This document shows, piece after piece, positions 7,735 to 62,355 of a DNA stretch of 64,000 bases. Under the pieces are notes generated by a model. The model saw only the letters and a list, made by a program, of their open reading frames with translations. It ran no database searches and had not been told where the DNA came from. This DNA is from Shigella phage ESh25. Both the position numbers and the translations under genes were made by a program. How positions within the stretch are numbered: the first letter of the stretch is position 1; the number at the start of each line of letters is the position of its first letter. Location: sequence record ON528735; one strand, written 5' to 3'.

Positions 7735-7992
7735 TTAACCACCTACACCTGGTGTAGGTGTAACAGTCCAAAGACCTTCATTAGCAGTGATCCATTCAGT
7801 ACGCTGATTTTCTTCATATACTGTAGAATATGCTGCTTTTTCAGAAGGGAATGTCTGATAATGAGCACCAGAAATTTTGTGAACATCAGAATAAAGAGGG
7901 AAAGCTACAGAAATTTCTTTACCCTGAATTGTACCACCATCAACTGCTTGGTCAAATGTTTTGATATTAACATAACCGCGAGTACTAGCCAT
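7735..7992 (-). CDS. soc: small outer capsid protein Soc
   Basis: 85 aa; MASTRGYVNIKTF...SVAFPLYSDVHKISGAHYQTFPSEKAAYSTVYEENQRTEW matches T4 Soc with a few substitutions. Confidence 0.9.
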   Translation of the reverse strand: MASTRGYVNIKTFDQAVDGGTIQGKEISVAFPLYSDVHKISGAHYQTFPSEKAAYSTVYEENQRTEWITANEGLWTVTPTPGVGG

Positions 7993-8008
7993 GTAATTCT
8001 CCTTTTAT

Positions 8009-8218
8009 TTAAATTACATGATTATTTATAATAAATTCTCGCGGAACGTTAAAATACCCGATTTTAGTTAATATAACAACATCGCCGTTAATAATTACCG
8101 GAGAATAATCTTCTGGAGCATTAAATTTCCAATGGGCTCTAATATTATATCCATCAGAACCAAATGCTCGCGTAGCTGGTCTCCCAGCTTTTTGCCATGC
8201 GTAGAAATCAAATTTCAT
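8009..8218 (-). CDS. hypothetical protein
   Basis: 69 aa ORF. Confidence 0.45.
   Translation of the reverse strand: MKFDFYAWQKAGRPATRAFGSDGYNIRAHWKFNAPEDYSPVIINGDVVILTKIGYFNVPREFIINNHVI
8023..8030 (-). promoter_or_regulatory. late promoter TATAAATA upstream of soc
   Basis: TATAAATA on minus strand ~30 nt upstream of soc ATG; soc is a late gene in T4. Confidence 0.5.
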
Positions 8219-8409
8219 TTTGAATGCTCTATAATTAATTTTAAAGCTTCTTCACTGACAAAAATTTCGTCAGGACCTTCTATAACTTCAACCATACGAA
8301 GTTGATTAGTTAAGAGCTCACATACGAGCTCCTTGTTATAATCTTTAAATAGCTGGTCAATACGTTTCTTATGGGCTTTCTTGAGCTGACGCTTATTTAA
8401 ACGAGCCAT
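8215..8409 (-). CDS. hypothetical basic protein
   Basis: 64 aa ORF, overlaps neighbours by 4 nt. Confidence 0.45.
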   Translation of the reverse strand: MARLNKRQLKKAHKKRIDQLFKDYNKELVCELLTNQLRMVEVIEGPDEIFVSEEALKLIIEHSK

Positions 8410-8927
8410 TAATAACCTCGGTCTTGACGAGCGAAGTTTTCAGCATTTTTCAGGTAATAAAGTTTAAAGATTTCTTCAGCTGACATTCCAAGAGCAATAA
8501 ATTTATTCATGAAAAAGTGAAATTGGTCAATCAGTTCAAATTTAATTTCAAGCTGATCTTCAGGAGATAAATCTTGAATTTTCTTGGATTGCATTTCAGA
8601 ATAACGTTTCTTCCAAGGTTTCCATACAGCAGAAGCTTCTTTTTCACCATTACTCATACCACCAAGAGAAGTATATAGCTCGCGAGTTTCATCTGCGATA
8701 TAATCGTCTTGGTTTCGCAACCAAGCAAGAACTTCTCCTGCAGTTTCAAGTGAATCAGGATGACGATTTGTTTCTGGTTTATCATTAGCCAAACGAATCT
8801 GTAGATGCCGCTGCATGTCAAGCATAACCTGCAGTGGGTCAATATTGTGCATAATATTCTCAGCATATGCACGATTTGCTTTATCAACACCTTCGATCAA
8901 ATGAGCGCATTCATTAAAGTAAGCCAT
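8409..8927 (-). CDS. 56: dCTPase/dUTPase (gp56)
   Basis: Track ORF (203 aa) trimmed to internal ATG giving 171 aa MAYFNECAHL..., the T4 gp56 length; T4 synteny. Confidence 0.8.
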   Translation of the reverse strand: MAYFNECAHLIEGVDKANRAYAENIMHNIDPLQVMLDMQRHLQIRLANDKPETNRHPDSLETAGEVLAWLRNQDDYIADETRELYTSLGGMSNGEKEASAVWKPWKKRYSEMQSKKIQDLSPEDQLEIKFELIDQFHFFMNKFIALGMSAEEIFKLYYLKNAENFARQDRGY

Positions 8928-8998
8928 TATTTTTCCTTTCAATTCATGGGTTAGTAGATTAATTATACAATAAATATATAAAGCAATAAGGAGGACAT

Positions 8999-9199
8999 AT
9001 GGTACAAAAATTAATGGCACTTGTTAATGCCATAAAAGGTAATAAAAAACGTATAGCTTTTACTATTTCTGCTATGGTAGGAATTTTACTCTGGAATTTT
9101 GTTTTATCACCAATTGCTATTGCTCATGGTGTTAATATTCCAGTAGTTACTCTTGATACATTTGTAGATTTAGCATTTGCTTTAGTTGGGTTGATTTAA
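8999..9199 (+). CDS. small two-helix membrane protein (plus strand)
   Basis: 66 aa; strong SD AAGGAGG 6 nt before ATG; hydrophobic segments; the only convincing plus-strand gene in the window. Confidence 0.5.
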   Translation: MVQKLMALVNAIKGNKKRIAFTISAMVGILLWNFVLSPIAIAHGVNIPVVTLDTFVDLAFALVGLI

Positions 9200-10224
9200 A
9201 TCTTAGCATATTTAGATAGCCGCATTTTAGCCATCAACCCCTGGGCAATATTATTTTTCATATATTCCATAATTTGTTCAGGGGTTGCACCTTCCTTTCT
9301 AATCATATCATTGACATCTTTTGATTTCCAGGGAGATTTATCCCAAAACATAACCCTTTCTCCTGCATCAACTAATTTAGTCATTCGTTTGATAGTGTCA
9401 GGGTGACGAGGTTCATTATCTAAAACCCACACTCGTCTATCTTTAAATGGAACAACTTCTAGGTCTAATTGACCACCTGTAATAGCTATACCATTTTCAA
9501 TAAAAAGTGAATCTATAGGTCCTTCTAGAACATATACATCACCATCTTTAACTCGTTCGACTCCATAGATTTTTGTTGCCTCAGGATAAGCTTTGATGGT
9601 GATATATTTTTGAGGAGCATCTTTCTTTAATGCACGCCCTTGAAAAGACTCAGCTTTTCCATTAGCATTATAAATTGGAATAACAAGACGAGGCTCAGGT
9701 ATTTCCTTTTTATATGTTCCCGGTGCTATGCTATTGACTAATTTAGGCCATTCGGTTGTAAACCAAAGAAATTTCCATTTATCCTTTGGAATACAACGAG
9801 CTTTTACATATTTTATAATTGGATGGTCTTCCGCCAATTTATCTAATCTAACACATGACGGAAGAGATTTAATTATTTTCTTCTCAGGTTGTTTAGGAAG
9901 TTCTTTAGGTTTTTCTACTGGACGACTTTTACCTTTTTCTTTTCTTATTTCAAAGATATACTCACGATATAAATCAGGTTCAAACTCCTTTAAATATATT
10001 CCGATTGGTGCATGATAGTTACAGTTATAACAATGAATATTTCCTTCATTATTATCACCATAATACCATCCACGAGCTTTATTCTGGTCGGTTTTTGAAT
10101 CTCCACAAACAGGGCATCTAAACCGCAATTTAAAAGTTGAACTATTATTTACTTGTGTGAATTTAGGTAAATGAGCTAGCGCACGATATGCAAACTCATT
10201 ATCAATCCAAGGTATTGATGACAT
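9196..10224 (-). CDS. 61: DNA primase (gp61)
   Basis: 342 aa; zinc ribbon CPVCGDSK...CYNC; T4 synteny. Confidence 0.95.
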   Translation of the reverse strand: MSSIPWIDNEFAYRALAHLPKFTQVNNSSTFKLRFRCPVCGDSKTDQNKARGWYYGDNNEGNIHCYNCNYHAPIGIYLKEFEPDLYREYIFEIRKEKGKSRPVEKPKELPKQPEKKIIKSLPSCVRLDKLAEDHPIIKYVKARCIPKDKWKFLWFTTEWPKLVNSIAPGTYKKEIPEPRLVIPIYNANGKAESFQGRALKKDAPQKYITIKAYPEATKIYGVERVKDGDVYVLEGPIDSLFIENGIAITGGQLDLEVVPFKDRRVWVLDNEPRHPDTIKRMTKLVDAGERVMFWDKSPWKSKDVNDMIRKEGATPEQIMEYMKNNIAQGLMAKMRLSKYAKI

Positions 10225-10226
10225 TT

Positions 10227-10391
10227 TTACTCTTCTTTTTCTTTAGATTCCTCTTTTTTCTTTTTAGGAATCTGTTCAGGACCTTTATTTACTACAGCGC
10301 CTGACGTTGTTCCAGTAGAGATATTTTCAGGATTACCACCTGAATCTCCAGCGACCATATCTTCTTTGATAAATTCTTTAAACGTTTTCAT
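10227..10391 (-). CDS. hypothetical small Gly/Lys-rich protein (61.1 position)
   Basis: 54 aa ORF below track threshold, found by manual translation; ATG one nt after upstream stop. Confidence 0.4.
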   Translation of the reverse strand: MKTFKEFIKEDMVAGDSGGNPENISTGTTSGAVVNKGPEQIPKKKKEESKEKEE

Positions 10392-10392
10392 A

Positions 10393-10749
10393 TTAACCTC
10401 TATTCATAAAAGCATTAAAAATTTGGTCATCAATAGATGGAATAGCAACTTTTTCTGCATCATTTAGCAAATCATTAATTTCATCAGATAGCATAACACA
10501 TGTACCTTTATTTCCTGTAATTGTTACTGCGCAATTACGAACGTTTTCTTTATTAAATTTTAGGTTAATATTTTCGTAATGAAAATCCTTTAATGCTGAA
10601 TATATTTTTAAAATAAAATTGTCTTTTACTACAATAAACCCAACCTCACTATTAAAACGTGGTTCATGGAAACTGTAATAAACCTTTTCATCTATAAAAT
10701 CGTATGAAATTTTTTCCATTTTTAAATATGAAAATTCAGAACTATACAT
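10393..10749 (-). CDS. hypothetical protein
   Basis: 118 aa ORF. Confidence 0.5.
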   Translation of the reverse strand: MYSSEFSYLKMEKISYDFIDEKVYYSFHEPRFNSEVGFIVVKDNFILKIYSALKDFHYENINLKFNKENVRNCAVTITGNKGTCVMLSDEINDLLNDAEKVAIPSIDDQIFNAFMNRG

Positions 10750-16640: not shown

Positions 16641-17021
16641 TCACTTAGTCAAATTTTTTACACATGAATTATAAGAATTCACTACATACTCCATCGGAGC
16701 ATTTTTACCAGTACGCCATTGGTAATTATTAGCCCAATTAGCCCAAAGCTCGGCGCAGTAGTTTTCAATTTTTTCTTCGCGTGTAATTACATCAGAATTA
16801 CGATATGCTTGAGCAGATTCATCTGGACGAATAGCTTCGTCAAAATTCGCCTGCATTTGTTCGACTGTTTGATTTGGAGCTTCTTTATAACACTTGACAT
16901 TAGGATTATAAAATTTGCTTGAACAGTTTACAATTTTTCCTACATCAGACTGATTTACTACCGGTCCTTGAGCCACACAACCAGTAAGACCTAATGCAAT
17001 AACCAAAATAGCGATTTTCAT
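16641..17021 (-). CDS. lipoprotein (imm.1 position)
   Basis: Lipobox LTGC after signal peptide; track start is TTG inside the leader, real ATG 12 nt downstream. Confidence 0.55.
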   Translation of the reverse strand: MKIAILVIALGLTGCVAQGPVVNQSDVGKIVNCSSKFYNPNVKCYKEAPNQTVEQMQANFDEAIRPDESAQAYRNSDVITREEKIENYCAELWANWANNYQWRTGKNAPMEYVVNSYNSCVKNLTK

Positions 17022-17033
17022 TTCATTCTCCAA

Positions 17034-17110
17034 ATCCGTATCAGTAGTTGATATTGATATAGTACCATGGAAGAACAGTCTTGTAAACAGTTTTGTGAAA
17101 AATTTTTAGG
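17034..17110 (-). repeat. promoter-leader cassette copy A (early promoter + SD)
   Basis: Near-identical to 45385..45460 and 60146..60230: GTTTACA-17nt-TACTAT...tatcaactactgatac...ttGGAGAAnnAAATG. Confidence 0.6.
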
Positions 17111-17175
17111 GAATCCAAAGGGTCCAGAATCATCTGTTTTTCATAAGTATAGATTTATATTACTTGTGTGAAAAA

Positions 17176-17191
17176 GGGACCCGGAGGTCCC
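17176..17191 (-). terminator. intrinsic terminator hairpin
   Basis: gggacccggaggtccc downstream of gene 43. Confidence 0.5.
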
Positions 17192-17204
17192 TAGATTTAT
17201 TCTA

Positions 17205-19901
17205 TCAGCCAAACAGGAAGTCTAACGAAGCCTTTTCCTCATAGTCCATACCTGCCGATTCACACATACCCGCAAGCGGTTTAACAAACGATTTTTGGAA
17301 CAAAGTTGAGTAGTCAATCCAAGACAGTACGTCAGAACGAATTTCTTTTGGAAGTTCTGTACCCGACGGCCAAGCAATGCATTTGTCACCAAATGGATTT
17401 CCCTCACGTAATGGAAGAACCATTACCTTATTTCCATCCAAAATTGGAGCTACACCTAAACCGTTAACAGCTCGACGATAAGTTAGCACACCGCGAATAT
17501 GAAACGGACATTTAAATCCTGGCCAACCTTTATCATCATATTTCGCTATATCGTTCGCAGTTTTTACTTCAGCAATAACTTTATAGTCAAGTTGACGATA
17601 TTCTTTCTCGAAGTTCTTGTAATATTCTTGGACAGACTCTTCACCTTCCTGAAGAATACGACGAATACTTTCTTCGAGAGCTTCTTGTACTGCTTTTGGT
17701 GTTGAACTCTGCTGAGTTTCCATACCCATGATTTTTAGATGTGGTTCAGCAAATCGCTTATCTTCCATATCATAAACGTTCAGAGCATAACGCTTTTTCG
17801 CTTTCCAAAATCCACCAACGCCCTTTGAACCAAGCGGAGGGCAAGAAATAGCTTCACGGTCCATATGCATCAGATGCTCGCGGTTATTCATATAATCACA
17901 TAACTCACGATATGCAACATCAATCATAGGTTCCATCTTTTTCTTACCGAACTGATTCATGAATTCAACTAAATCGTTCTGCTCTTTGAATCGGTCAAGA
18001 CCAACTTTTTTAATAACTTTATCTACACAAACATATACCGAATCAGTATCACCTGCTGCGATGAAATCTTCATCATTAGTTCCGCATACTTTATTCAGAT
18101 ATTCATTAATTTTACGAGCAATCCACTGAATACCGACTTGACCAAAAATTGTGATAGCAGTAGCATTTCGCAAATCATAGTAACGGAAATGAATGTTACC
18201 AAGAGCACCATAAAGACTATTAATAAGAATTTTACGGTTCAGCTGATTTGTGTTAGCAAGTGTAGCTGCTTTTTCACATTCTTCAATCAAACTATTGAGA
18301 ACAGATTCAGTATAATTCGATAGTTCATTTAAGAAATCATCACTGAACTTAACATATCGTTCAACTTCAGGTTTAGTTGAACAAGACCCTGCGCCTTTCA
18401 TAATAATCTTTTTAATAGCTTCGGCATTCATTTCTTCAGCGAACATTTTCTTTTTCCAATCTTTACGCTGGAAAAATACTTTAGCGATTTCCTTTGGAAT
18501 GATACCTTCTTGATGCTTATCATACATCCATCCATTCGGAGAACAAGAATATTCATCACTCGGTTTAGGAGCTGTTCCTGCGATATATTCATGAATTGGA
18601 TGAACTTTAAATTGTCCACGAATAGTCTCAGGACTAATGTTAACCTGACGAATAATGCTCGGATACAGAGACGTCAAGTCAAAACTCATAATGTATCGAC
18701 GAGCAATTGGTTTAGGTTCAAACACAAATGCACCCGGAAAACTTTGTTTAACGTGCGAACCTTGTTGAGGAATAACCTTGTGTTCACCTTTCAATGAGTT
18801 AAAAATAATAGCATCCCAGGTTTTAATAGGACTCATTACACCAGAAAAAGGCATTTTAGCGTAATAAGACATACTTAAAACTAGATCGATAAACCCGCGA
18901 ATTTTATCAATTGCTTGAACTGATTCTACGTCAATGATGTTATAACTAATGTATCGTTGATGATTAGTCTCACGAAGTTTATTAATAGGACCATCATACG
19001 GTAATTTACCTTTTTTGGTTTCATGCTGAGCAACTGATTCCAAAGAGAATGACGGCAAATTAGTAAATGCGAATTTCTTATACAAATCTAAATAATCAAG
19101 AATAGATACGCCATCAATAGAATAAATTTCTTTGCTACCGTACATATTTTGGATAAGTTTAGATTTTACTCGACCGATTGGAGAGAAGCGTTTCATACTA
19201 CGTTCACCGAGAACCATTTTAACGCGATTCATGATATACGGAACGTCAAATCCCTCAATATTCCAACCAGTAAAAATAGCAGGTCGTTTCTGTTCCCAGA
19301 GATTGATATATTCCATGAGCATATCACGCTCATTATCGAATGGCATATAAATTACTCGGTCAAGAATTTCTTGAGGAACTTCATCACCACCTTCACAGTC
19401 AAGCTTAGCAGCTAACTTTGCATCCCATTTTGATACTGAACCATACATTGAATTCAAAAGGTCGAAAACATAAAAACGATCATCAATTGAATCGTAATGA
19501 GTGATAGCATCAATTTCATATTCAGCTTTCATTGGGTCAGGAAATTTATCACCAGTAACCTCAATGTCACAGTTAGCTACACGAACAAATTTTCGGTCAT
19601 AAACAATTTCTGAACCATATGTATCACTGATATAAGCGAGTTTAAAATCGTTCATACCGAGGGCTTCGAGACCGATGTCTTCCATTCGCTTCATCCAATC
19701 TCGTGCATCTTTCATTGATGGAAATTTTTGAGGAGCGCAGTTTTTACCGTAAATGTCTTTGTATTTTGATTCTTCCTTACAATGTCTAAACATAGTCGGA
19801 AGATATTCTACTTCGCGAGTACGTTCCTTTCCATTTTCGTCAATATAACGTTCAACAATATTATTTCCGACTGTTTCGATAGAGATATAAAATTCTTTCA
19901 T
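17205..19901 (-). CDS. 43: DNA polymerase (gp43, family B)
   Basis: 898 aa; exonuclease and polymerase motifs (DTDS); T4 synteny. Confidence 0.97.
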   Translation of the reverse strand: MKEFYISIETVGNNIVERYIDENGKERTREVEYLPTMFRHCKEESKYKDIYGKNCAPQKFPSMKDARDWMKRMEDIGLEALGMNDFKLAYISDTYGSEIVYDRKFVRVANCDIEVTGDKFPDPMKAEYEIDAITHYDSIDDRFYVFDLLNSMYGSVSKWDAKLAAKLDCEGGDEVPQEILDRVIYMPFDNERDMLMEYINLWEQKRPAIFTGWNIEGFDVPYIMNRVKMVLGERSMKRFSPIGRVKSKLIQNMYGSKEIYSIDGVSILDYLDLYKKFAFTNLPSFSLESVAQHETKKGKLPYDGPINKLRETNHQRYISYNIIDVESVQAIDKIRGFIDLVLSMSYYAKMPFSGVMSPIKTWDAIIFNSLKGEHKVIPQQGSHVKQSFPGAFVFEPKPIARRYIMSFDLTSLYPSIIRQVNISPETIRGQFKVHPIHEYIAGTAPKPSDEYSCSPNGWMYDKHQEGIIPKEIAKVFFQRKDWKKKMFAEEMNAEAIKKIIMKGAGSCSTKPEVERYVKFSDDFLNELSNYTESVLNSLIEECEKAATLANTNQLNRKILINSLYGALGNIHFRYYDLRNATAITIFGQVGIQWIARKINEYLNKVCGTNDEDFIAAGDTDSVYVCVDKVIKKVGLDRFKEQNDLVEFMNQFGKKKMEPMIDVAYRELCDYMNNREHLMHMDREAISCPPLGSKGVGGFWKAKKRYALNVYDMEDKRFAEPHLKIMGMETQQSSTPKAVQEALEESIRRILQEGEESVQEYYKNFEKEYRQLDYKVIAEVKTANDIAKYDDKGWPGFKCPFHIRGVLTYRRAVNGLGVAPILDGNKVMVLPLREGNPFGDKCIAWPSGTELPKEIRSDVLSWIDYSTLFQKSFVKPLAGMCESAGMDYEEKASLDFLFG

Positions 19902-54153: not shown

Positions 54154-54515
54154 TACAAACTCTCAGTAAAGGTACGAGCAATAACGTCGCGCTGCTGTTC
54201 CGGAGTCAGAGAGTTAAAGCGAACTGCATAACCGGATACACGGATGGTCAGCTGCGGATATTTTTCCGGATGCTTAACTGCATCTTCCAGAGTTTCGCGA
54301 CGCAGAACGTTAACGTTCAGGTGTTGACCACCTTCAATTTTAACTGTAGGCTGTTGCTCAATTTCAATTTCACGGGCATGCAAACCATAGAAAATTTCTG
54401 GGTCTACAAAAGAGTCCTCTTTAAAGGTTTTAGAGACAATAATTCGTGCTTGAATACCATCTTCAAAATAAATAGTACCTTTATGTGTGCCTTCAAGAAT
54501 TTGATATGCTTTCAT
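54153..54515 (-). CDS. autonomous glycyl-radical cofactor-like protein (GrcA/YfiD-like)
   Basis: 120 aa; C-terminal [25 protein letters not shown] glycyl radical signature. Confidence 0.65.
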
Positions 54516-61751: not shown

Positions 61752-62355
61752 TATTGTTAATTTGATTTAGAATTCTTTTTGCTTGAGTATGACTTACGCC
61801 AATATGCTTAGCATATTTAGATAATTCACCCCGCTTAGAAAAATCATATAATTTAGAAATTTCTATTCTTCTTTTTCTTTCATCCGCAGAAACTTTTGCT
61901 TCGTTTGCTTTTGCTATTTTACGTTTAGCTTCTTGAGAATGAGTTTTACCAGCAAAGCCATTTTTCATTAATCCATTTGAAGACCATCCTTTTAATTTTC
62001 CGTTAGAATGTGCCTTTTTAACACCCAATGAAATTAATTCGCGTTGCTGATCTGTCATAGGATAATTATTTATATGATCCCATCCACCTTCACCTCCAAG
62101 TTTTAAATTATACACATCTGGTCTATTTAAAAACTCTTCTGTGACAATATTTTTCTCGGCTTCAAGCATAGATTCTTTATCATCAAAATACTCTAATATT
62201 TCTTTAGAAAAATTTTCTATGCCATATTTATCTTGGGCTCTTTTTAATAATTTACCAGAACCCATATATCCATCATCTAAATTTTCGGTAGAATGCACAC
62301 CAATATAAATTTTATTATTAATTTTATTTGTTATTTTATAAAGATAAAAATGCAT
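61747..62355 (-). CDS. segB: GIY-YIG homing endonuclease SegB
   Basis: FYLYKITNK...IYIGV motif; embedded in the tRNA cluster as in T4; track ORF starts at ATG 62397 (216 aa), I prefer ATG 62355 next to the motif. Confidence 0.8.
   Translation of the reverse strand: MHFYLYKITNKINNKIYIGVHSTENLDDGYMGSGKLLKRAQDKYGIENFSKEILEYFDDKESMLEAEKNIVTEEFLNRPDVYNLKLGGEGGWDHINNYPMTDQQRELISLGVKKAHSNGKLKGWSSNGLMKNGFAGKTHSQEAKRKIAKANEAKVSADERKRRIEISKLYDFSKRGELSKYAKHIGVSHTQAKRILNQINNI

What the first reader, a model, noticed from the sequence alone, without database searches (positions are those of the whole stretch)
8928..9199. Locus between gene 56 and gene 61 holds a plus-strand small membrane ORF instead of dam
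As I recall, T4 carries the dam DNA adenine methylase between 56 and 61. Here the interval is ~270 bp and holds the only convincing plus-strand gene in the window: a 66 aa protein with two hydrophobic helices and a near-perfect SD (AAGGAGG, 6 nt spacing). If that recollection is right, this genome lacks Dam methylation at this site; segF is likewise absent between soc and 56.
Basis: partly seen in the sequence, partly recalled or inferred. Interest (0 to 1): 0.5.

Follow-up and report, generated by a model that had tools for sequence, protein, structure and literature searches.

The report
Conserved small T-even membrane gene beside primase
The 66-codon plus-strand ORF is a real, conserved small membrane-protein gene that T4 also carries next to its dam gene, so it does not replace dam; this phage simply has the common dam-less form of the locus, which is ordinary.

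Summary
The window is a Tequatrovirus (T4-like) early region. The ORF at 8999-9199 (+) exists, has the SD AAGGAGG (4-nt spacer here, not 6), and is protein-coding: dN/dS is about 0.1-0.2 and it keeps the same place between genes 56 and 61 in Tequatro-, Mosig- and Gapriverviruses (692 phage records; phrog_2024, function unknown).

But T4 also has this ORF, between dam and 61. It is missing from the curated T4 records and is called by automatic pipelines. So the ORF is a resident gene, not a substitute for dam.

About two thirds of Tequatrovirus records lack dam. A close complete relative with the same layout has no Dam homologue anywhere. segF is also absent.

A variant T4 late promoter (AATAAATA, 22 nt before the ATG) is conserved in 8 of 9 contexts, and the core motif is three-fold depleted in the window. 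The most likely reading is a late-expressed, single-pass inner-membrane protein whose physiological role is unknown.

Side finding: in most dam-carrying relatives, dam travels with a PD-(D/E)XK, DpnII-like nuclease gene. T4 keeps only a 28-codon relic of it.

The parts
8999..9199 (+). 66-codon ORF for a small membrane protein (phrog_2024; RB32 ORF030w / VR7ORF033w type). Its TAA stop (9197-9199) overlaps the stop codon of gene 61 within the palindrome TTAA.
   Evidence: phrog_2024, E 2.3e-31; dN/dS; 692 phage records; model
8988..8994 (+). Shine-Dalgarno AAGGAGG, 4 nt before the ATG. An AAGGAG(G/A) core is conserved in all homologues examined.
8969..8976 (+). AATAAATA, a variant T4 late-promoter element (consensus TATAAATA, with A at -13), 22 nt upstream of the ATG.
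   Evidence: ATAAATA present 16-22 nt upstream in 8 of 9 contexts; one of only 3 plus-strand occurrences in 64 kb; motif depleted, 13 seen against 41.6 expected; same geometry at soc, e and gene 49; PMC2988020
8979..8987 (-). MotA box ATTGCTTTA of the middle promoter of gene 56 (the promoter of the oriA primer transcript in T4). It sits immediately next to the ORF's SD on the other strand.
   Evidence: Read directly from the sequence. Fits the consensus (a/t)(a/t)(a/t)TGCTTtA placed 12+/-1 bp from the -10 element (PMC2988021). Annotators of phage fPS-2 mark a 'predicted middle promoter' on the near-identical sequence.
8962..8967 (-). -10 element TATAAT of the gene 56 middle promoter. The 11-bp spacer to the MotA box contains the plus-strand late-promoter element.
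9014..9033 (-). Weak terminator-like hairpin followed by TAATTTTTGT on the minus strand, 165 nt downstream of gene 61 and inside codons 6-12 of the ORF. It is conserved only within Tequatrovirus.
   Evidence: (dG -8.9 kcal/mol; not found at this position in Mosig- or Gapriverviruses); annotated as a terminator in fPS-2
8409..8927 (-). Gene 56, dCTP pyrophosphatase. The true start is at 8927. The 203-codon GTG-started ORF that runs to 9020 is an artefact of ORF listing.
9196..10224 (-). Gene 61, DNA primase, convergent with the ORF.
8009..8409 (-). Two small genes (8009-8218, DUF7422 / phrog_5773; 8215-8409, phrog_5782) that occupy the place of T4 segF between soc and 56.

Best explanation
The interval is the cassette-free ('empty-site') form of the T-even 56-61 locus. 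Its one resident gene is a conserved 66-residue membrane protein.

**Expression (inferred).** All T4 early and middle transcription runs on the other strand, and a variant late promoter (AATAAATA) lies 22 nt before the start codon. The gene is therefore most likely transcribed late by gp55-RNA polymerase from a start near 8983, and translated from a strong ribosome-binding site.

**Protein (inferred).** A basic N-terminal amphipathic helix stays in the cytoplasm. Residues about 19-42 cross the inner membrane once. A short helix with a conserved acidic face (DTFVD) lies on the periplasmic side.

**Role (guess).** I rank an accessory, envelope-directed late function first. It might tune lysis or lysis inhibition, block superinfection, or bind a host membrane protein. 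This step has no direct support.

**Transcript end (inferred).** No plus-strand terminator-like site was found between the ORF and 10400, so the late transcript probably runs on antisense to the primase gene.

**dam.** It is missing because the optional cassette found in T4 and T2 (a nuclease-like gene plus dam, transcribed on the minus strand and inserted between the gene 56 MotA box and this ORF) is not present here.

**Shown:** the gene is real, under purifying selection, syntenic across three genera, and present in T4 beside dam.
**Inferred:** late timing, membrane topology and physiological role.
For: **The gene is coding and conserved**
- dN/dS is 0.10-0.22, and changes sit mostly at third codon positions.
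- Length and motifs (AIKGNK, LWNF, DTFVD) hold down to 46-56% identity.
- It matches phrog_2024 over its full length.
- The position is fixed: 56 | ORF(+) | 61 in Tequatrovirus, Mosigvirus, Gaprivervirus and metagenomic relatives.
- T4 has both dam and the ORF.

**Late promoter**
- ATAAATA lies 16-22 nt upstream of the ATG in 8 of 9 contexts, although the flanking bases differ.
- The motif is depleted in the window, 13 seen against 41.6 +/- 6.0 expected, with only 3 on the plus strand.
- Most other copies sit 13-36 nt before the start codons of soc, e, gene 49 and others. Gene 49 uses the same AATAAATA variant.
- A at -13 is the commonest variant, at 9 of 50 listed T4 late promoters. All early and middle transcripts share the other polarity (PMC2988020).
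- Annotators of phage Lutter marked GATAAATA as a promoter at the same place.

**Membrane protein**
- Hydropathy is above 1.5 over residues 17-29 with a 19-residue window.
- The model has helices at 2-12, 16-42 and 52-63.

**dam absence**
- No Dam in the window or in the whole SHBML-50-1 genome.
- dam DNA is found in 184 phage records, against about 500 Tequatrovirus records that carry the ORF.
Against: - There is no direct evidence of transcription, translation or phenotype for this ORF in any phage. Literature searches found nothing.
- The promoter element departs from the consensus at its first base in every lineage examined (A, G or C in place of T). One relative, L007, lacks it.
- There is no Pfam, NCBIfam, PADLOC or informative PDB match.
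- The only significant structural neighbour is another member of the same family. The next two hits are 63-residue phage proteins without a functional name.
- The structural model is only moderately confident (pLDDT 74, pTM 0.43) and rests on 6 sequences. Topology was not computed with a dedicated predictor.
- The whole genome of this phage was not available, so a dam gene outside the window cannot be strictly excluded.
Confidence: 0.62

Rival explanations
1. One reading: the small membrane ORF took the place of dam, as a gene replacement at this locus.
For: In this window the 56-61 interval holds the ORF and no dam. T4 does have dam in that interval.
Against: - T4, T2-type and Lutter-type phages carry both dam and the ORF side by side.
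- The ORF is found in 692 records and dam DNA in only 184.
- Genera without dam at this site still have the ORF.
Confidence: 0.02
2. The ORF is not translated. The stretch is conserved because it serves the minus strand as the 3' untranslated region and terminator of gene 61, and as an insulator in front of the gene 56 / oriA middle promoter.
For: - A terminator-like hairpin with a T-run lies on the minus strand at 9033-9014, inside the ORF. fPS-2 annotators mark a terminator there.
- The MotA box directly abuts the SD.
- The curated T4 records never listed the ORF.
Against: - The substitution pattern is that of a coding sequence in this frame.
- ORF length, start, SD and amino-acid motifs persist where the nucleotide sequence has diverged to saturation.
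- The hairpin is weak (-8.9 kcal/mol) and is not conserved outside Tequatrovirus.
Confidence: 0.05
3. The protein is a holin, antiholin or other lysis-timing factor that acts late at the inner membrane.
For: - It is a small protein with a hydrophobic helix and a predicted late promoter.
- UniRef labels one member 'Holin'.
Against: - The 'Holin' label is unsupported by any holin family match.
- The protein ends in hydrophobic residues, without the charged C-terminal tail typical of holins (established knowledge).
- It is not near lysis genes. These phages already encode holin T, RI, RIII and spanins.
- Only one helix is long enough to span the membrane.
Confidence: 0.12
4. The main function is RNA-level. 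A late plus-strand transcript reads on, antisense, into the convergent primase gene 61 and helps to shut off primase mRNA late. The peptide is secondary.
For: - The two genes are convergent with overlapping stop codons.
- No plus-strand terminator-like site was found from the ORF to 10400.
- Both T4 strands are known to be transcribed at different times at several sites (PMC2988020).
Against: Purifying selection on the amino-acid sequence shows that the peptide itself matters. Antisense read-through was not observed, only not excluded. In VR7 and RZ the ORF is 180-200 bp or a whole gene away from gene 61.
Confidence: 0.1

Closest known systems
phrog_2024 / 'RB32 ORF030w', 'VR7ORF033w' hypothetical proteins of T-even phages
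   Same: Full-length match (E 2.3e-31). Same length, strand and position next to the primase gene in hundreds of deposited genomes.
   Different: Nothing relevant differs; this ORF is simply another member. The family has no assigned function and no experimental record that I could find.
T4 56-dam-61 locus (NC_000866 16270-18963)
   Same: Genes 56 and 61, the small plus-strand ORF, the MotA-type middle promoter of gene 56 and the overlapping stop codons are all shared. The ORF-to-gene-61 block is 95% identical in nucleotides.
   Different: T4 has about 880 bp more between the MotA box and the ORF's late-promoter element. That extra stretch holds dam plus an 84-bp relic of a nuclease-like gene. 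T4 also has segF where this phage has two small genes.
Small membrane proteins of T4 that act at the envelope (Imm, Sp, RI, Ac)
   Same: Small size, membrane or envelope location, and restriction to a narrow group of coliphages (established knowledge of T4; Imm, spackle, acridine-resistance and lysis-inhibition genes are annotated in the relative).
   Different: There is no sequence similarity to any of them. Imm and Sp are early genes on the other strand, while this ORF is on the late-only strand. Function was not tested.

Membership tests
phrog_2024 (T-even small hypothetical protein) | Full-length profile match | tested here: met
   E 2.3e-31, residues 2-66 against profile positions 1-65 of 65
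phrog_2024 (T-even small hypothetical protein) | Conserved position: plus strand, between gene 56 (or a cassette) and primase gene 61 | tested here: met
T4 late gene | TATAAATA-type element at -10, a short distance upstream of the start codon | tested here: met
   AATAAATA at 8969-8976. This is a one-base variant, the commonest kind according to PMC2988020. It is conserved and is one of only 3 plus-strand copies in 64 kb.
T4 late gene | Transcription that depends on gp55, gp33 and gp45 and appears after DNA replication starts | not testable with these tools
   No transcript data were available, and no paper was found
Holins | Match to a holin family profile | tested here: not met
   No Pfam or NCBIfam hit. 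The only 'Holin' neighbour in BFVD is another member of this same family carrying an automatic name.
Holins | Charged, hydrophilic C-terminal tail, and linkage to endolysin or spanin genes | tested here: not met
   The protein ends ...AFALVGLI. Its neighbours are the dCTPase and primase genes. The lysis genes lie elsewhere in the relative's genome.
Dam (GATC N6-adenine methyltransferase) at the 56-61 locus | A Dam homologue encoded between 56 and 61, or elsewhere | tested here: not met
   tblastn best E is 0.53 in the window and 1.0 in the full genome of the relative SHBML-50-1. The positive control on T4 gave E 6e-176.
SegF homing endonuclease between soc and 56 | A GIY-YIG SegF homologue at that site | tested here: not met
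   No hit at 7993-8408. The only weak hit is at 62346-62041, E 9e-5. Two small unrelated genes occupy the site.
MotA-dependent middle promoter (gene 56 / oriA promoter) | MotA box (a/t)(a/t)(a/t)TGCTTtA placed 12+/-1 bp upstream of a TAtaaT -10 element | tested here: met
   ATTGCTTTA, then 11 bp, then TATAAT on the minus strand at 8987-8962. Consensus taken from PMC2988021. Promoter activity was not tested.
Type I toxin-antitoxin (small hydrophobic toxin plus antisense RNA) | A cis-encoded antisense sRNA, and toxicity of the peptide | not tested
   No minus-strand promoter-like site stands out inside the ORF beyond chance level (9 sites found, 8.3 expected). Toxicity cannot be tested here.

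The most novel reading that the evidence does not exclude
Two linked readings remain open.

1. A genuine late gene for a small inner-membrane protein has been missing from the curated T4 reference annotation. It is conserved across the hydroxymethylcytosine T-even coliphages. It could be an unrecognised player in a classic T4 envelope phenotype such as lysis inhibition, late superinfection exclusion or membrane integrity.

2. T4 Dam may be the orphan survivor of a two-gene, restriction-modification-like cassette (a DpnII-like PD-(D/E)XK nuclease plus Dam). That cassette is still intact in T2 and about 160 other phages, and this phage shows the empty site.
Probability: 0.3. Interest if true: 0.45.

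Novelty: already known. Interest (0 to 1): 0.2.

Why it matters
As written, the finding matters little. Presence or absence of dam and segF is a common polymorphism among T-even phages, and the ORF is already deposited as a hypothetical protein in hundreds of genomes.

Three modest points come out of the check.
- The curated T4 reference records (NC_000866, AF158101) omit a gene that is clearly under purifying selection and probably expressed late. Studies that rely on that annotation, such as proteomics databases, CRISPRi libraries or expression arrays, will have missed it.
- The locus shows a compact overlap. A late promoter for one strand sits inside the spacer of a MotA-dependent middle promoter for the other strand, which in T4 is the oriA primer promoter.
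- The 'dam' insertion is usually a two-gene module with a putative GATC-family nuclease. This changes how T4 Dam might be viewed.

Tried and rejected
- **Family searches for the ORF.** Pfam, NCBIfam, PADLOC and PDB sequence searches gave nothing usable. The single PDB hit, NqrE at E 0.088, is hydrophobic-composition noise.
- **Profile search.** A profile search of 1.84 billion representative proteins found only 6 hits, all T-even-type, so no distant annotated relative exists at the sequence level.
- **Structural search.** Foldseek against viral models gave only another member of the same family as a significant hit. The next two were weak, unannotated 63-residue phage proteins, one from an Enterobacter phage.
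- **Literature.** Searches for T4 ribosome profiling or unannotated ORFs, for 'ORF030w', for the peptide string and for T4 transcription-start maps found nothing on this ORF. Miller et al. 2003 (PMC150520) is not held, so I could not check whether its late-promoter list has a site at about T4 17.72 kb.
- **Minus-strand hairpin as the conserved feature.** Rejected, because it is absent outside Tequatrovirus.
- **Simple deletion of the T4 cassette between promoter-like repeats.** A 13/14 match (ATTAATTATACAAT) suggested that the window form arose this way. Rejected: in T4 that match lies inside the relic coding sequence, and the junctions do not fit.
- **GATC depletion as a consequence of lacking dam.** Rejected: the depletion is the same (observed/expected 0.34-0.35) in the T4 segment that carries dam.

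Full report
**What the window is.** The region is the early-gene arm of a Tequatrovirus (T4-like phage), in the same orientation as the T4 reference. Megablast of 8400-10300 finds 545 phage records, the best at 98.6% identity. The first 25 kb is 97-98% identical to Shigella phage SHBML-50-1 and phage GiZh. The local gene order on the minus strand is:
- soc, 7735-7992
- two small genes, 8009-8218 and 8215-8409
- gene 56 (dCTPase), 8409-8927
- gene 61 (primase), 9196-10224
- 61.1, a shortened 61.2, sp, 61.4, dmd and gene 41

**The observation.** The 268-bp interval 8928-9195 holds a plus-strand ORF of 66 codons at 8999-9199. AAGGAGG lies at 8988-8994, and a 4-nt spacer precedes the ATG.

The ORF's stop codon and that of gene 61 overlap within the palindrome TTAA at 9196-9199.

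ORF length alone proves nothing here. The same list contains spurious plus-strand ORFs of up to 110 codons. Three other lines show that the ORF is a gene.
- *Substitution pattern.* Against T4, ECML-134 and UFV-AREG1, dN/dS is 0.10-0.22. Against two metagenomic homologues of 54% and 70% identity, synonymous sites are saturated (pS 0.72-0.83) while pN is 0.24-0.33. Differences by codon position are 25/8/41 and 28/15/39.
- *Conservation.* Length, start, ribosome-binding site and the motifs AIKGNK, LWNF and DTFVD persist down to 46-56% identity.
- *Family.* It matches phrog_2024 end to end at E 2.3e-31.

A greedy ORF model leaves only three plus-strand ORFs in 64 kb, and only this one has a ribosome-binding site. 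In the RefSeq annotation of SHBML-50-1, its orthologue is the only plus-strand CDS before the baseplate genes.

**The interpretation.** The recollection of T4 is correct. In NC_000866, dam (16846-17625) lies between 56 and 61, and segF lies between soc and 56.

The phrase 'instead of dam' is wrong. T4 itself has the same 66-codon ORF, with 3 amino-acid differences, at 17738-17938 between dam and 61. It is absent from NC_000866, AF158101 and the original K03113 entry. Pyrodigal/Pharokka calls it in a re-sequenced T4, with the phrog 2024 label. It is annotated as a hypothetical protein in hundreds of relatives, named after 'RB32 ORF030w'.

tblastn finds the ORF in 692 phage records. About 500 are Tequatrovirus at 89% identity or more. 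About 190 are below 60% identity; the sampled ones that I checked are Mosigvirus and Gaprivervirus. In the loci I examined it lies between gene 56 and gene 61, on the plus strand. In VR7 and RZ a spacer or a homing-endonuclease gene separates it from gene 61.

A profile search of 1.84 billion representative proteins returns only 6 hits. The family is confined to this group of phages.

**dam and segF.**
- dam DNA occurs in 184 phage records, and Dam protein at 90% identity or more in 182. About a third of Tequatrovirus genomes carry it and two thirds do not.
- The window has no Dam homologue (best E 0.53).
- I assembled the whole SHBML-50-1 genome (166,634 bp, same locus layout). It has none either: best E is 1.0, against 6e-176 for the T4 positive control.
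- Mosigvirus, Gaprivervirus and two metagenomic relatives all show 56-ORF-61 without dam. By parsimony, the dam-less form is ancestral at this site.
- SegF is absent at soc-56. Two small genes take its place: DUF7422/phrog_5773 and phrog_5782.

However, the rest of this phage's genome was not seen.

**Anatomy of the intergenic 71 bp.** On the minus strand, ATTGCTTTA (8987-8979) is followed by 11 bp and then TATAAT (8967-8962). This fits the MotA-box consensus and spacing (PMC2988021). It is the middle promoter of gene 56, which in T4 makes the oriA primer transcript (annotation). fPS-2 annotators mark the same element.

On the plus strand, AATAAATA (8969-8976) lies inside that promoter's spacer, 22 nt before the ORF's ATG.

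**Expression timing.** The evidence is indirect, but several lines agree.
- The same paper says the late promoter is TATAAATA. Of 50 listed sites, 32 are perfect and 9 carry A at -13, which is the variant seen here.
- The core ATAAATA is present 16-22 nt before the ATG in 8 of 9 contexts examined. These are the window, T4, Lutter, fPS-2, a metagenomic phage, a Mosigvirus and two Gapriverviruses. The surrounding bases differ, and in T4 and Lutter the upstream DNA is the dam cassette.
- The core is strongly avoided in the window: 13 copies on both strands against 41.6 +/- 6.0 in shuffles, and only 3 on the plus strand.
- Most of the other copies sit 13-36 nt before start codons of soc, lysozyme e (two copies), gene 49 (also AATAAATA) and others.

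With only three plus-strand copies in 64 kb, one would land within 30 nt of this start codon by chance about once in 700 trials.

No sigma-70-type site precedes the ORF on the plus strand, and no plus-strand terminator-like site follows it up to 10400. A late transcript may therefore continue antisense to gene 61.

**The protein.** The N-terminus is basic (K4, K13, K16, K17, R18). Residues 19-42 are strongly hydrophobic. A short loop (HGVNIP) follows. The C-terminal 18 residues are hydrophobic but carry two conserved acidic residues four positions apart (D53, D57; E at position 53 in Gapriverviruses).

AlphaFold on a 6-sequence alignment gives helices at 2-12, 16-42 and 52-63, with mean pLDDT 74. 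The last helix is too short to span a bilayer. By the positive-inside rule, I infer an N-in, single-pass protein with a periplasmic or interfacial acidic helix.

No family or structural search gives a function. The UniRef name 'Holin' on one member has no support.

**Most likely mechanism.** The protein is an accessory, late-made inner-membrane protein that acts at the envelope. Gene reality is near-certain, membrane location is likely, late timing is probable, and the physiological role is a guess.

**Rivals.**
- A purely minus-strand role for the stretch, as terminator or insulator, fails on the codon-level evidence. The hairpin at 9033-9014 is weak and specific to Tequatrovirus.
- A holin role fails the family tests.
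- An antisense role against primase mRNA is possible as an addition, but it does not explain selection on the peptide.

**Side finding about the missing cassette.** The flanks of the ORF are a hot spot for insertions.
- Between 56 and the ORF: nothing (here), dam (T4), dam plus a 186-residue gene (Lutter, T2 and others), or an HNH/NUMOD3 homing endonuclease (fPS-2).
- Between the ORF and gene 61: a homing endonuclease in RZ.

The 186-residue gene accompanies dam in 164 records, including T2. Its features point to a nuclease:
- an invariant D...ExK motif, FDIVI...IEIKHQ
- a Pfam DpnII match in 4 of 6 family members, best E 8.3e-5 but below the curated cut-off, plus RE_BanI matches
- a predicted fold (pLDDT 81) whose PDB neighbours are mostly PD-(D/E)XK nucleases such as McrC, Bax1, Card1/Can2, the R2 endonuclease domain and N.BspD6I

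T4 keeps only a frameshifted relic of its last 28 codons, next to a deletion of about 540 bp.

The optional module therefore looks like a nuclease-plus-Dam pair, T4 Dam looks like its orphan, and this window shows the unoccupied site. I did not find this described in the literature, but the search was shallow and the specificity of the nuclease is unknown.

**Verdict.** The sequence observation is correct. The comparison with T4 is half right. The locus is an ordinary, already-catalogued variant. Interest is low, at about 0.2.

Noticed in passing
L003 5739-5939 (T4 NC_000866 17738-17938, + strand): T4 itself encodes the 66-residue protein between dam and gene 61. The CDS is missing from NC_000866, AF158101 and K03113, but an automatic pipeline calls it in the re-sequenced T4 record OZ209057.
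   Followed up: yes
L011 1980-2540 (phage Lutter, minus strand); relic in T4 at L003 5629-5711: In 164 phage records, including T2, dam is preceded by a 186-residue gene (phrog_8706). It has an invariant D...ExK motif, sub-threshold Pfam DpnII and BanI matches, and a predicted PD-(D/E)XK nuclease fold. T4 retains only a frameshifted 28-codon relic. Together with dam this looks like a restriction-modification-like cassette. The window has neither gene.
   Followed up: partly
window, whole; L012-L015; L003: GATC is the most depleted 4-bp palindrome (observed/expected 0.34-0.35) in the window, in the dam-less relative SHBML-50-1 and in the T4 segment that carries dam. The avoidance is therefore independent of carrying dam.
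   Followed up: partly
window, whole (13 sites listed): The late-promoter core ATAAATA is about three-fold under-represented (13 copies against 41.6 +/- 6 expected). Most copies lie 13-36 nt upstream of start codons of soc (8029), lysozyme e (56537, 56524), gene 49 (36846) and others. This suggests selection against stray late promoters.
   Followed up: partly
L010 780-1430 (fPS-2); L021 1872-2621 (RZ); L019 233-904 (VR7 segF): HNH/NUMOD3 homing-endonuclease genes are inserted on one side or the other of the small ORF in some relatives, and VR7 has segF. The flanks of genes 56 and 61 are a hot spot for mobile genes.
   Followed up: partly
window 62041-62346 (- strand): Weak tblastn match to T4 SegF (28% identity over 106 residues, E 9e-5). 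It is probably another GIY-YIG seg-type homing endonuclease near the tRNA region.
   Followed up: no
window 8931-8947 (- strand), and the equivalent sites in T4, L004, L007, L018 and L019: The leader just upstream of the gene 56 start, (A/C)TGAATTGAAAGGAAAA, is almost invariant across genera. In several phages it begins with a mini-ORF, ATG-AAT-TGA. It lies between the middle promoter and the gene 56 start, next to T4 oriA.
   Followed up: no
window 54467-54474 (+ strand): A second plus-strand AATAAATA is followed 31 nt later by a 77-codon ORF ([11 protein letters not shown]...). That ORF has no ribosome-binding site and lies antisense to the start of a minus-strand gene. It is probably spurious.
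   Followed up: no
window 10393-10749 (- strand): The gene at the position of T4 61.2 has 118 codons here, against 208 in T4. SHBML-50-1 has two genes there (357 and 633 bp). This is another variable spot in the 61-41 interval.
   Followed up: no
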